From the NCBI GenBank assembly GCA_964652335.1, contig CAZZDL010000001.1:1-62080 (forward strand): 62,080 nt of DNA, written 5' to 3'. The stretch comes from Candidatus Micrarchaeota archaeon (GTDB lineage Archaea; B1Sed10-29; WALL01; WAMD01). A program made the translations under genes and the position numbers. This document shows positions 49,464 through 50,204 of this stretch, piece after piece; the stretch's first letter is position 1, and every line of letters begins with the position of its first letter. The notes under the pieces are model-generated. The model searched no databases and was not told where the DNA came from. It saw only the letters and a program-made list of their open reading frames with translations.

Positions 49464-50048
49464 GTTGGGATCCTAGAACTAAAAGAAGCTAAAAAGGCCG
49501 AAGATGGTTCAAAAAGAGTAAAAACAGGGTTTAAACAAGAAGAAAAAGAAAATTTGCTGGCTATTTATGAAAAAATAGCTAAAATTGAAGAGATATTAAG
49601 AATTATAGATGATAGGTTGGTTATTTTGGATGCAAAAGTGGCTACAAAAGATGAAATGAGAGATATACGGCAAATTTTAGCAGAAACAAACCAAAACAAG
49701 GCAGATTTGTCAGAAAAACTCAGTTTAATCAATCAAAAAATAGATATTTTAGCTGCTAAGAGGGAAGAACTTAGTAAATTGGAGTCCGAATCAAAACATC
49801 TGGCGGAATCCTTTAATAAAGAAGCTAAAAAGGTTGAAAAAACGCTTAAAATACTTGAATCTCACAGAAAAATACTTGAAGCCTTGAGAAACGGAGAAAA
49901 AAGCACTATAGATCTCGCGAATGAGCTAGGATTTACAAGGCAATATGTGTGGGAGAGGCTTCAAGAACTGAAATCTGCTGGGTTCGTTGATCAAAAAAAG
50001 AAAGGAAGGAAAACAGTATATTTCCTAATTAATGAAAGCGTCAACTGA
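49257..50048 (+). CDS. Island ORF: KSERS-repeat N-terminus, coiled coil, C-terminal wHTH
   Basis: C-terminal STIDLANELGFTRQYVWERLQELKSAGFVDQKKKGRKTVY; the true start is uncertain because the N-terminus coincides with DNA-level repeats. Confidence 0.5.
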   Translation: MGIINALKNLIKKKSERSPEITEKPSIGEASDLAKREKSERSNKIMLDEPEEQGRGHEKPAFFGKSERSVGILELKEAKKAEDGSKRVKTGFKQEEKENLLAIYEKIAKIEEILRIIDDRLVILDAKVATKDEMRDIRQILAETNQNKADLSEKLSLINQKIDILAAKREELSKLESESKHLAESFNKEAKKVEKTLKILESHRKILEALRNGEKSTIDLANELGFTRQYVWERLQELKSAGFVDQKKKGRKTVYFLINESVN

Positions 50049-50204
50049 CATATAGTTTACGTAAGCTGACGTGTCAGTTGACATGTTAGTTTACGTAAAA
50101 TTTCTTCCCCCTCAAAACCAGCTATTTGATTAATTTTTATGTCAGCTTACGTAAGTTGACATGTTAGTTTACGTAAACTTACGTAAGTTTACGTAAGCTG
50201 ACAC
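50045..50204. repeat. Array of six palindromic TTACGTAA octamers embedded in longer direct and inverted repeats
   Basis: TTACGTAA at 50057, 50091, 50147, 50169, 50179, 50189. 24-nt direct repeat AGTTGACATGTTAGTTTACGTAAA at 50076-50099 and 50154-50177. 17-nt direct repeat AGTTTACGTAAGCTGAC at 50054-50070 and 50186-50202, with an inverted partner GTCAGCTTACGTAA at 50141-50154. Confidence 0.95.

What the first reader, a model, noticed from the sequence alone, without database searches (positions are those of the whole stretch)
50045..50204. Dense array of six palindromic TTACGTAA sites, three phased at exactly 10 bp, between two convergent wHTH genes
The perfect palindrome TTACGTAA occurs at 50057, 50091, 50147, 50169, 50179 and 50189, and the last three are one helical turn apart. 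The sites are embedded in larger units. There is a 24-nt direct repeat AGTTGACATGTTAGTTTACGTAAA (50076-50099 and 50154-50177). There is a 17-nt direct repeat AGTTTACGTAAGCTGAC (50054-50070 and 50186-50202) with an inverted partner at 50141-50154, plus CTGAC/GTCAG dyads. The array sits between two 3' ends, so it is not a promoter operator. Its geometry suits cooperative binding of a dimeric protein. It could be a centromere-like partition site, a replication-origin iteron block, or arm-type sites of the adjacent att-like core.
Basis: seen in the sequence. Interest (0 to 1): 0.65.

Follow-up and report, generated by a model that had tools for sequence, protein, structure and literature searches.

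The report
Conserved protein-docking array after archaeal gene
The cluster of TTACGTAA palindromes is real and is kept, right behind the same coiled-coil DNA-binding protein gene, in eleven distantly related uncultured archaea. It is therefore almost certainly that protein's own docking platform on the chromosome and not a mobile-element or promoter site, though what the complex does is still open.

Summary
Confirmed. TTACGTAA occurs six times at 50057-50196 and nowhere else in 62 kb (0.47 expected). With a second dyad, TGAC(R)(Y)GTCA, it forms about 10 sites in two clusters, 10-12 bp apart centre to centre.

The array is not on an island. The Lhr…apgM neighbourhood is syntenic in related metagenome-assembled genomes (MAGs). 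The "att-like core" is an initiator tRNA-Met gene with a 415-nt intron. Nothing similar is found in phage, plasmid or IMG/VR data.

In 11 lineages, whose proteins are 36-51% identical, the same dyads begin 2-28 bp after the stop codon of one gene. That gene (49257-50048) encodes a conserved N-terminal MG-peptide, a disordered linker, a 118-residue helix and an ArsR-like winged helix whose recognition helix TRQYxWxRL is near-invariant. Site density there is 13.9/kb against 0.16/kb elsewhere. The convergent partner gene varies, so the array tracks this gene. Three loci lacking this recognition helix lack the dyads.

Best reading: a cooperative, same-face binding platform for this protein, acting like a centromere or chromosome tether without an NTPase gene. 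Rivals are an origin-associated element and a looped autoregulatory operator.

Two further conserved DNA motifs, M2 and M3, flank the gene and are unexplained.

It is a new variant of a known kind. Function is untested.

The parts
49257..50048 (+). Gene for the coiled-coil winged-helix protein (CC-wHTH, 263 aa), the proposed binder of the array. It has a conserved N-terminal MG(I/L/F)-hydrophobic-basic peptide, a disordered linker (17-93), one long helix (94-211) and a C-terminal ArsR-like wHTH (217-257).
   Evidence: ORF. Pfam HTH_24/HTH_5 at residues 201-245. AlphaFold model. Foldseek hits to ArsR/SmtB/CzrA. Only 5 homologues among 5.8 billion proteins. The recognition helix TRQY(V/I/L)W.RL is near-invariant.
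50057..50098 (.). Cluster A of the array: TTACGTAA (50057), TGACGTGTCA (50067), TGACATGTTA (50079), TTACGTAA (50091). Centres are 11, 12 and 11 bp apart. It starts 9 bp after the stop codon of the CC-wHTH gene.
   Evidence: In all 11 lineages the first dyad lies 2-28 bp after the stop codon.
50100..50139 (.). Spacer between the two clusters (40 bp, 30% G+C). Its length is 10-240 bp in relatives and its sequence is not conserved.
50147..50208 (.). Cluster B: TTACGTAA (50147), TGACATGTTA (50157), TTACGTAA at 50169, 50179 and 50189, and a degenerate TGACACATCT (50199). Centres are 11, 11, 10, 10 and 11 bp apart.
50236..50257 (-). Motif M3, GAATACCGGAACTAAGGGGGGT (core ACTTCCGGTATTC on the + strand). 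It lies just distal to the array and overlaps the last codons of the 237-aa gene. Identical copies are at 57078-57099 (+) and 57688-57709 (+).
   Evidence: It sits next to the array in 9 of 11 lineages. It is read in different frames by different host genes (NTGTKGG, EYRNKGG, ARIPELRG), so it is conserved as DNA.
49126..49459 (+). Five direct copies of motif M2, AAAAGTGAGAG(A/T)TC, at 49126, 49185, 49296, 49368 and 49449. They lie upstream of and inside the 5' part of the CC-wHTH gene, where three encode KSERS in frame. A sixth copy is at 50998-51008.
   Evidence: All copies found in the relatives are in the sense orientation of the gene.
48679..48966 (-). Divergent 95-aa wHTH gene. It is far better conserved than the CC-wHTH (62-83% identity, 49% in the remotest locus). 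It persists with M2 and M3 in loci that lack the array, so it is more likely the partner of M2/M3 than of the array.
50218..50931 (-). Convergent 237-aa gene: an N-terminal winged helix plus a helical domain. The family has about 40 clusters at 50% identity. It is a variable neighbour and is not linked to the array.

Best explanation
The array is the cognate, high-density binding platform of the coiled-coil winged-helix protein encoded immediately upstream (49257-50048).

Shown:
- About 10 dyads of two related types share the half-site T(T/G)AC: TTAC|GTAA, and TGAC-RY-GTCA.
- They are spaced one per helical turn in two clusters that begin 9 bp after the gene's stop codon.
- The same grammar sits at the same place in 11 lineages whose other intergenic sequence is scrambled.
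- The array follows this gene when the neighbouring gene changes.
- It is absent where the protein is absent or carries a different recognition helix.

Inferred:
- Dimers held by the 118-residue helix place their two ArsR-like wHTH domains on each dyad.
- Because successive dyads lie on one face of the DNA, a dozen dimers would pack side by side into a short, stiff or wrapped nucleoprotein filament.
- The long coiled coils and the conserved N-terminal MG-hydrophobic-basic peptides, at the end of a 75-residue flexible linker, would project from that filament to contact a partner, either the membrane or the division apparatus.

Proposed function: a chromosomal 'gene plus docking site' cassette that marks and tethers one locus. 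This locus lies about 29 kb from orc1/cdc6 and always within a few kb of a PRC-barrel gene. It would work like a centromere or anchor site, as RacA-ram or ParR-parC do, but without a dedicated NTPase gene. In distant lineages extra dyads in the gene's own promoter add autoregulation, possibly through a 5'-3' loop.

My estimates: the array is a protein-binding element, 0.9. The binder is this protein, 0.7. The function is tethering or segregation rather than origin control or pure regulation, about 0.35-0.4.
For: - Enrichment: 6 sites against 0.47 expected.
- Grammar and 10-12 bp spacing in the window and four relatives.
- Over 11 lineages, 55 exact dyads lie in the 360 bp at the gene's 3' end (13.9/kb) against 21 in 129.8 kb elsewhere (0.16/kb). 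The first dyad is 2-28 bp after the stop codon. Of 44 spacings, 24 are 10-11 bp and 10 are 20-23 bp.
- The array stays with the CC-wHTH gene when the convergent gene is TraB rather than the 237-aa gene.
- Loci without the TRQY helix lack the dyads: L134/L135, L141 and L140.
- The recognition helix is near-invariant although the proteins are only 36-51% identical.
- The architecture comes from the AlphaFold model, with an ArsR/SmtB fold for the C-terminal domain.
- Promoter dyads are present in L132, L038 and L139.
- A PRC-barrel gene is nearby in every locus long enough to show it. PRC-barrel proteins act in archaeal division (bioRxiv 10.1101/2023.03.28.534520).
- orc1/cdc6 and PolD lie in the same window.
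Against: - There is no binding data, no RNA data and no complete genome. Only DNA metagenomes hold this organism.
- No ParA, ParM, TubZ or other NTPase gene is conserved in the neighbourhood.
- The amphipathic character of the N-terminal peptide is not statistically robust: it is significant in only 2 of 10 sequences.
- The phyletic argument rests on few and related lineages. The 'changed helix, changed site' case is a single lineage.
- An 8-bp palindrome is short for a wHTH dimer, so the true recognition unit could be the 10-12-bp repeat bound by monomers.
- The PRC-barrel linkage may reflect shared synteny rather than function.
- A factor encoded elsewhere could be the binder.
Confidence: 0.4

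Rival explanations
1. The array is part of, or a control module of, the chromosomal replication origin. On this reading the M2 direct repeats, the AT-rich stretch at 48970-49125 and the ORB-like M3 element form an Orc1-dependent origin that is not adjacent to orc1/cdc6. The CC-wHTH protein on its dyad array then acts as an origin-bound accessory for handcuffing, sequestration or membrane attachment, arranged like the iteron sets that flank rep genes in P1 and F plasmids.
For: - orc1/cdc6 (20120-21358), both PolD subunits, RecJ/GAN, Lhr and DnaG are all in the window.
- There is no intergenic space and no repeat next to orc1/cdc6.
- The CC-wHTH locus is the only place in 62 kb with clustered repeated 10-mers.
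- M3 gives the only GGAA-N5-GGGGG matches in the window. From memory it resembles the Orc1-bound ORB, which has a GGAA-containing dyad plus a G-string.
- In L006 and L008 the two dyad clusters flank 150-240 bp of very AT-rich DNA.
- In L141 an AT-rich stretch plus M2 and M3 exists without the CC-wHTH module.
- In L132, L038 and L139 dyads flank the gene on both sides, as iterons flank repA.
Against: - The canonical ORB core is at chance level in the window.
- M3 is single at the locus rather than paired and inverted around an unwinding element. Its two other copies lie inside the ThiI coding sequence 7 kb away.
- The spacer between clusters shrinks to about 10-30 bp in L010, too short to be an unwinding element.
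- No Rep-, primase- or helicase-like gene is in the conserved core.
- The GC-skew profile follows gene orientation and shows no origin signature here.
- The resemblance of M3 to ORB is recalled, not tested.
Confidence: 0.22
2. The array is simply a transcriptional operator. The CC-wHTH would be an ArsR-type repressor whose sites at the 3' end block read-through or convergent transcription from the opposing gene (a roadblock). Alternatively the sites loop to the promoter to autoregulate. No chromosome-organising role is involved.
For: - The DNA-binding domain is ArsR/SmtB-like.
- In L132, L038 and L139 the same dyads bracket a TATA-like element just upstream of the gene's start codon.
- The array always lies where two convergent transcription units meet, and often overlaps the 3' end of the opposing gene.
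Against: - The universally conserved feature is the 3' array (11 of 11 lineages), not promoter sites, which are absent in the window, L006, L007 and L008.
- Ten to twelve sites at one per helical turn is far more than a repressor or roadblock needs.
- The 118-residue coiled coil, the 75-residue linker and the conserved N-terminal peptide have no role in a plain repressor.
- Compact archaeal genomes manage convergent genes without such arrays. This is general knowledge, not tested here.
Confidence: 0.2
3. The palindromes act as nucleic-acid structure, either RNA hairpins in the overlapping 3' UTRs (terminator or stability elements) or DNA cruciforms, and not as protein-binding sites.
For: - The 176-nt stretch folds at -68.3 kcal/mol against -31.6 for shuffles (z = -10.1).
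- A 20-bp hairpin at 50056-50099 is followed by a T-rich run immediately after the stop codon.
Against: - Hairpin potential follows automatically from any chain of palindromes.
- What is conserved across lineages is the literal sequence TTACGTAA / TGACRYGTCA and its 10-12-bp register, not the pairing. No compensatory drift is seen.
- The common variant TGACGTGTCA is not even self-complementary at its centre.
- The number, order and symmetry of units differ between lineages.
- Archaeal termination relies on oligo-T tracts rather than hairpins (established knowledge).
Confidence: 0.08
4. The array is a remnant or active site of a mobile element: plasmid iterons or a plasmid centromere, or arm-type sites of an integrase att site next to the tRNA gene.
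For: - Several small wHTH genes of unknown function are clustered here, next to a tRNA gene, in a region of slightly lower G+C (0.35-0.37).
Against: - The gene order from Lhr through the wHTH genes to apgM, PIN, RNA ligase, PRC, GT2, S17e and Rpb6 is conserved in relatives at 36-85% protein identity.
- No integrase, Rep or partition ATPase turned up among the genes examined.
- The tRNA-like sequences are the two exons of one initiator tRNA-Met with a 415-nt intron, not duplicated att cores.
- There are no protein relatives in IMG/VR, phage or plasmid collections. The 24-mer is absent from IMG/VR, and only three isolated single composite sites are found there.
Confidence: 0.03

Closest known systems
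Plasmid type II/III centromeres bound by small adaptor proteins (parC-ParR of R1/pSK41; tubC-TubR of pBtoxis)
   Same: - Two clusters of short repeats at about 10-12-bp periodicity.
- They lie next to the gene of the DNA-binding protein that coats them cooperatively on one face of the helix. TubR is itself a winged-helix dimer.
- The bound array acts as a handle for a partner.
   Different: - No ParM or TubZ motor gene is present.
- The array lies at the 3' end of the gene rather than over its promoter.
- It is chromosomal and vertically inherited.
- The binder carries a long coiled coil, a linker and an N-terminal peptide that ParR and TubR lack.
- There is no sequence homology. The comparison rests on my own knowledge of these systems.
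RacA-ram chromosome anchoring in Bacillus subtilis (and, more loosely, Noc-NBS and MatP-matS)
   Same: - A protein with an HTH-type DNA-binding domain plus a long coiled coil binds a short palindrome near the origin region. The ram site is TGACGCCGGCGTCA and matS is GTGAC-RNY-GTCAC, close in form to TGAC-RY-GTCA here.
- That protein links the chromosome to the pole, membrane or divisome without a dedicated NTPase.
   Different: - The sites of those systems are dispersed over hundreds of kb. Here they are packed into 160 bp at a single locus, as far as 62 kb can show.
- The domain order is reversed, with the DNA-binding domain at the C-terminus.
- There is no homology.
- The organisms here are archaeal.
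- The comparison rests on my own knowledge.
Archaeal partition systems (SegAB of Sulfolobus; AspA-ParB-ParA of pNOB8)
   Same: An archaeal site-specific wHTH or RHH protein binds palindromic sites beside its own gene and spreads or oligomerises. The neighbouring 95-aa wHTH gives only insignificant hits to AspA (E = 0.5; Foldseek rank 14 for the 237-aa model).
   Different: - No SegA- or ParA-type Walker ATPase gene is present.
- The hits to AspA are not significant.
- The sites and proteins are unrelated in sequence.
Iteron-controlled replicons (P1 oriR-repA-incA; F ori2-repE-incC)
   Same: In L132, L038 and L139 repeat sets flank the gene of the protein that binds them, with the promoter-proximal set giving autoregulation and a larger distal set.
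   Different: - The protein is not a two-winged-helix Rep.
- The units are dyads at 10-12 bp, not 19-22-bp direct iterons.
- There is no consistent adjacent AT-rich unwinding element.
- The locus is chromosomal.
ArsR/SmtB-family repressors and their operators
   Same: The fold of the DNA-binding domain and recognition of imperfect inverted repeats.
   Different: - No metal- or ligand-sensing core is present.
- The domain is fused to a 118-residue helix.
- There are 10-12 sites instead of one or two.
- The sites lie 3' of the gene.

Membership tests
Plasmid/chromosomal partition cassette (ParABS, ParMRC, TubZRC, SegAB) | Motor NTPase gene (ParA/SegA Walker ATPase, ParM actin-like, TubZ tubulin-like) in the same operon as the centromere-binding protein | tested here: not met
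   Pfam and precomputed Pfam annotation of all neighbours in the window and 10 related loci show no such gene in the conserved core. An AAA_28 gene is present only in L008.
Plasmid/chromosomal partition cassette (ParABS, ParMRC, TubZRC, SegAB) | Cluster of repeats adjacent to the gene of the protein that binds it | tested here: inconclusive
   Adjacency and co-inheritance of the array and the CC-wHTH gene are shown in 11 of 11 lineages. Binding itself cannot be tested with these tools.
Archaeal oriC (ORB/mini-ORB origin) | Location directly beside an orc1/cdc6 gene | tested here: not met
   orc1/cdc6 is at 20120-21358, about 29 kb away.
Archaeal oriC (ORB/mini-ORB origin) | [quoted passage not shown] | tested here: not met
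   The canonical ORB core is at chance level. The ORB-like M3 is single at the locus. The spacer between dyad clusters is only 40 bp here and about 10-30 bp in L010.
Iteron-type plasmid origin | Adjacent Rep initiator gene (Rep_3 / two winged-helix domains) and direct 19-22-bp iterons | tested here: not met
   The flanking proteins hit only generic HTH families. The fold is one ArsR-like wHTH plus a coiled coil. The repeats are dyads at 10-12-bp spacing.
Integrase att site with arm-type sites | Tyrosine or serine recombinase gene nearby, and duplicated core sequences bounding an element that is absent from relatives | tested here: not met
   No recombinase turned up in the locus. The region is syntenic in relatives. 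The tRNA 'halves' are exons of one intron-containing tRNA-iMet.
ArsR/SmtB operator | One or two imperfect inverted repeats overlapping the promoter of the regulated operon | tested here: not met
   In the window no dyad lies in the promoter region 48966-49257. All the dyads are 3' of the gene. Promoter dyads exist only in distant lineages.
ArsR/SmtB operator | Binder has the ArsR-type winged helix-turn-helix fold | tested here: met
   Pfam HTH_24/HTH_5. Foldseek top hits are CzrA, SmtB and SqrR with probability 1.0. The profile hit to ArsR-family chains has E = 1e-6.

The most novel reading that the evidence does not exclude
A minimal chromosomal centromere or anchor in uncultured, probably DPANN-related archaea. 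It would be a self-contained 'gene plus docking array' cassette. Its coiled-coil winged-helix product coats about a dozen helically phased dyads and, through a conserved N-terminal peptide on a flexible linker, couples an origin-proximal locus to the membrane or to the PRC-barrel/SepF/FtsZ division machinery. No ParA-type motor is involved. Together with the older M2/M3 module and the 95-aa wHTH, it may mark the still unknown replication origin of this clade.
Probability: 0.2. Interest if true: 0.8.

Novelty: new variant of a known kind. Interest (0 to 1): 0.6.

Why it matters
How archaea that divide with FtsZ position and segregate their chromosomes is largely unknown. For DPANN-type archaea neither origins nor centromeres have been mapped.

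This work supplies a sharply defined DNA element of about 160 bp and a specific candidate binder, conserved over deep divergence. The pair can be tested directly with recombinant protein and synthetic DNA, even though the organisms are uncultured.

If the complex is a tether or centromere, it would be a motor-less way of marking a chromosomal locus. If it is origin-linked, it would locate an origin that is not next to orc1/cdc6. Even on the most conservative reading it defines a new wHTH family together with its recognition sequence.

Tried and rejected
- Mobile-island / att reading: rejected because of synteny, the lack of any integrase, and the intron-containing tRNA-iMet.
- The 237-aa protein as binder: rejected. 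Its family (about 40 clusters) occurs without dyads (L134, L140, L141, L142). It is 2-3 kb from the array in L132 and L139, and was not found in the sequence held for L038 and L136-138.
- The 95-aa wHTH as binder of the dyads: unlikely, since it persists where the dyads are absent.
These are tandem repeats and 12-bp-phased RTTACGTAAY triplets in CPR, Bacteroidales and others.
- The search for related loci with the broad 237-family alignments: failed because no conserved stretch was available.
- Metagenome scan with the CC-wHTH alignment: gave only three more loci.
- Canonical ORB search next to orc1/cdc6 and across the window: nothing above chance.
- Rfam: no known RNA in the array. The mir-7131 'hits' are palindrome artefacts.
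- Sequencing runs: only DNA metagenomes held as contigs, so there is no transcription or coverage-gradient evidence.
- Amphipathic-helix test of the N-terminal peptide: not significant in most homologues.
- Literature: no paper links TTACGTAA to archaeal DNA-binding proteins. The PRC-barrel neighbourhood survey does not use the terms wHTH or TraB.
- Foldseek on the 237-aa model: only weak generic winged-helix hits.
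Full report
**1.

TTACGTAA is present at 50057, 50091, 50147, 50169, 50179 and 50189 and nowhere else in the 62,080-bp window. Dinucleotide-preserving shuffles give 0.47 on average and never more than 2. The 24-nt and 17-nt direct repeats, the inverted 14-mer and the CTGAC/GTCAG dyads are all exact. The block lies between the 3' ends of 49257-50048 (+) and 50218-50931 (-).

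**2. The array has more structure than was reported**

A second dyad, TGAC(R)(Y)GTCA, alternates with TTACGTAA.
- Cluster A (50057-50098) reads TTACGTAA, TGACGTGTCA, TGACATGTTA, TTACGTAA.
- Cluster B (50147-50208) reads TTACGTAA, TGACATGTTA, three TTACGTAA and a degenerate TGACACATCT.
- Successive centres are 10, 11 or 12 bp apart, so every site faces the same side of the helix. The clusters are separated by a 40-bp spacer of 30% G+C.
- Both dyads share the half-site T(T/G)AC, with 0 or 2 bp between halves. The flanks extend the symmetry to ARY-TTACGTAA-RYT.

**3. This is chromosomal DNA of an uncultured archaeon, not an island**

- The window carries RecJ/GAN, Orc1/Cdc6 (20120-21358), both PolD subunits, TyrRS, SecDF, GlmS, Lhr, apgM, ThiI and DnaG.
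- The exact proteins are found only on hydrothermal-vent metagenome contigs.
- The 263-aa protein has only five homologues among 5.8 billion proteins.
- The contigs of those homologues show the same gene order, from Lhr through the small wHTH genes to apgM, PIN, RNA ligase, PRC barrel, glycosyltransferase, S17e and Rpb6, at 36-85% protein identity.
- No integrase, Rep or partition ATPase turned up among the genes examined.
- The tRNA-like sequence that presumably suggested an att core is an initiator tRNA-Met(CAT) at 51156-51646. It is interrupted after the anticodon loop (after tRNA-gene nucleotide 40) by a 415-nt intron that holds the 96-aa ORF (ARAGORN with introns allowed). Contigs of other organisms run straight through at 51195.
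- The protein has no relative in IMG/VR, phage or plasmid collections. The 24-mer is absent from IMG/VR. The composite TTACGTAA-NN-TGACRYGTCA occurs there only as three isolated single sites.

**4. The array is conserved and tracks one gene**

- In the four close relatives the gap between the homologues of the two convergent genes again holds TTACGTAA and TGACRYGTCA dyads at 10-12-bp spacing. The rest of the intergenic sequence, the number of sites (4-10) and the spacer length (about 10-240 bp) all differ.
- A locus labelled 'Nanobdellati archaeon' (the DPANN kingdom), two further MAG or metagenome lineages (L132, L139) and three short metagenome contigs (L136-L138) extend this to 11 lineages.
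- In the six more distant lineages (L132, L038, L136-L139) the convergent neighbour is a TraB-family gene. In L132 and L139 the 237-aa family gene lies 2-3 kb away; it was not found in the sequence held for the others. The dyads nevertheless still start 2-28 bp after the stop codon of the coiled-coil wHTH gene.
- Pooled over lineages, 55 exact dyads lie in the 360 bp at that gene's 3' end (13.9 per kb) against 21 in the remaining 129.8 kb (0.16 per kb). Many of those 21 lie in the same gene's promoter or coding region. Of 44 spacings, 24 are 10-11 bp and 10 are 20-23 bp.
- L134/L135 encode a remote homologue with a different recognition helix (LSLNRCSEILNAL). They have no such array but carry other dyads (GTCGATAC / TATCGAC) on both sides of the gene.
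- L141 and L140 have no homologue and no dyads.
- Within the TRQY group the recognition helix TRQY(V/I/L)W.RL is near-invariant, although overall identity is only 36-51%.
- This presence-absence pattern, the tight physical linkage, and the pairing of a near-invariant helix with an invariant site are the basis for naming 49257-50048 as the binder. It is an inference and not a demonstration. The lineages are few and related.

**5. The protein**

- The AlphaFold model (six sequences, mean pLDDT 72, above 90 over the C-terminal 110 residues) gives a short N-terminal helix (4-15), a disordered stretch (17-93), one uninterrupted helix (94-211) and a winged helix (217-257).
- The winged helix matches ArsR/SmtB/CzrA-type domains.
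- The N-terminus MG(I/L/F)-hydrophobic-basic is conserved in all homologues, including the remote one. Its hydrophobic moment exceeds shuffles in only 2 of 10 sequences, so a membrane-binding role is only a suggestion.

**6. Mechanism proposed**

Shown: sequence, phasing, conservation and linkage.

Inferred:
- Coiled-coil dimers seat two wHTH domains on each dyad.
- The one-per-turn register lets neighbouring dimers contact each other, giving cooperative coating of both clusters.
- The projecting coiled coils, linkers and N-terminal peptides offer a multivalent surface for a partner.

This is how ParR-parC, TubR-tubC and RacA-ram work. Here, however, no NTPase gene accompanies the cassette, and the array lies behind the gene rather than over its promoter. 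In L132, L038 and L139 additional dyads bracket a TATA-like element just upstream of the start codon. Autoregulation, perhaps by 5'-3' looping, is therefore a likely secondary function in those lineages. A PRC-barrel gene lies within 1-5 kb in every locus long enough to show it. PRC-barrel proteins are division factors in Haloferax. This is context, not proof.

**7. Rivals**

*Origin-linked element.*
- orc1/cdc6 has no adjacent intergenic region or repeats.
- This locus holds the only clustered repeats in 62 kb.
- Two more conserved DNA motifs surround the gene (see section 8).
- On the other side, the canonical ORB core is at chance level. M3 is not paired around an unwinding element. The inter-cluster spacer can be as short as about 10-30 bp. 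GC skew is uninformative.

*Plain operator or roadblock.* This fits the ArsR fold and the promoter dyads of distant lineages. It does not explain a dozen phased sites or the elaborate non-DNA-binding part of the protein.

*RNA or DNA hairpins.* They are very stable (z = -10), but that follows from any chain of palindromes. The literal sequence and register are conserved, not the pairing. The common TGACGTGTCA is not self-complementary at its centre.

*Mobile-element readings.* These are essentially excluded (see section 3).

**8. Two further conserved DNA motifs**

*M2, AAAAGTGAGAG(A/T)TC.*
- It occurs six times in the window: 49126, 49185, 49296, 49368, 49449 and 50998. All are on the + strand.
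- It is present in every relative, always in the sense orientation of the gene.
- Three copies lie in frame in the disordered linker, where they encode KSERS. In L132 all seven copies are upstream and non-coding.

*M3, core ACTTCCGGTATTC after a G- or C-run.*
- It follows the array in 9 of 11 lineages.
- It is read as NTGTKGG by the 237-aa gene, as EYRNKGG by TraB in L038, and in two frames inside ThiI. It is therefore conserved as DNA.
- The window has three identical 22-mers: 50236 (-), 57078 (+) and 57688 (+).
- M2 and M3, together with the very conserved 95-aa wHTH, persist in L141 and L134 without the dyads. They therefore form an older module into which the CC-wHTH gene and its array appear to be inserted. 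Their function is unexplained.

**9. Comparison with known systems, and novelty**

- The array works like a plasmid centromere or a RacA-type anchor site.
- It fails the defining test of partition cassettes, because there is no motor gene.
- It fails the tests for an archaeal oriC (not beside orc1, no inverted ORBs), an iteron origin (no Rep, dyads rather than iterons) and an att site.
- It shares only the DNA-binding fold with ArsR regulators.
- No paper links this motif to archaeal proteins.
- I therefore class it as a new variant of a known kind: a helically phased binding array with its adjacent binder.

**10. Limits**

There is no binding, expression or localisation data. There is no complete genome, so genome-wide site counts are unknown beyond 62 kb plus about 70 kb of related loci. 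The phyletic evidence comes from 11 related lineages and three negative ones.

Noticed in passing
window 49126-49459 and 50998-51008 (+); L132 877-1176; all related loci: The direct repeat AAAAGTGAGAG(A/T)TC (M2) occurs six times exactly in the window. All copies are on the + strand and all lie within 1.9 kb. Three are in frame inside the CC-wHTH coding region, where they encode KSERS. In every relative the copies are always in the sense orientation of the gene. One copy sits about 50 nt upstream of a C/D box sRNA.
   Followed up: partly
window 50236-50257 (-), 57078-57099 (+), 57688-57709 (+): The 22-mer GAATACCGGAACTAAGGGGGGT (M3) occurs three times at 100% identity. Two copies lie inside ThiI in two different reading frames, and one forms the C-terminal codons of the 237-aa gene. 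The core ACTTCCGGTATTC is conserved next to the array in relatives, and also in loci that lack the array. From memory it looks ORB-like. It is unexplained.
   Followed up: partly
window 51156-51646 (+): An initiator-type tRNA-Met(CAT), with an A1-U72 pair and a GGG/CCC anticodon stem, is interrupted after nucleotide 40 by a 415-nt intron. The intron contains a 96-aa ORF (51316-51606) with no family match. The default tRNA scan missed it.
   Followed up: yes
window 51051-51104 (+): A probable box C/D sRNA with C, D', C' and D boxes all present. Rfam sR1/sR2 hits are below the gathering score (E = 0.0008-0.003).
   Followed up: partly
window 20120-21358 (-), 21419-21789 (+), 22565-27341 (-): orc1/cdc6 lies beside PolD, but there is no intergenic region and no ORB-type repeat next to it. 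A small SepF-like ORF fills the upstream gap. The replication origin of this genome is therefore not in the textbook position.
   Followed up: partly
L141 5211-5615; L134 327-1034 and 1531-1700: Remote relatives keep the 95-aa wHTH gene, an AT-rich stretch, M2-like repeats and M3 next to a PRC-barrel gene. They have no TTACGTAA dyads. L134 has a 165-aa coiled-coil wHTH with a different recognition helix, flanked by GTCGATAC/TATCGAC dyads, which may be co-variation of protein and site.
   Followed up: partly
L013, L016, L017, L022, L024, L032, L033, L037, L041-L046, L049-L051, L054, L058, L059, L072, L076-L078, L081 and others: Many unrelated bacterial MAGs (Saccharibacteria and other CPR, Bacteroidales, Bdellovibrionales) carry three or four RTTACGTAAY sites at exact 12-bp period. 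Others carry TTACGTAA inside longer tandem repeats. This is a different, apparently widespread system that reads TTACGTAA.
   Followed up: no
window 50218-50931 (-); alignment A4: The 237-aa protein belongs to an unannotated family of about 40 clusters at 50% identity (200-230 aa, an N-terminal winged helix plus a helical domain). It usually lies next to a PRC-barrel gene, and in L132, L134 and L139 near an Ogt-like DNA_binding_1 gene. The short C-terminal tail NTG(S/T)KGG of the close relatives is the translation of M3.
   Followed up: partly
window 46392-46420, 49076-49118; L006 6706-6770; L008 5330-5370: An AAAAATGTATT(G/T)T-type motif recurs in the AT-rich intergenic regions of the locus and in the long spacers between dyad clusters in L006 and L008. 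It is possibly a promoter element.
   Followed up: no
window 50047-50254 versus a 208-nt contig of run X4: A related strain differs at 7 positions across the array, including C>T at 50150 inside one TTACGTAA. Another X4 contig appears to join 49139 to 50074, but only 21 nt support the far side, so this is probably spurious.
   Followed up: no
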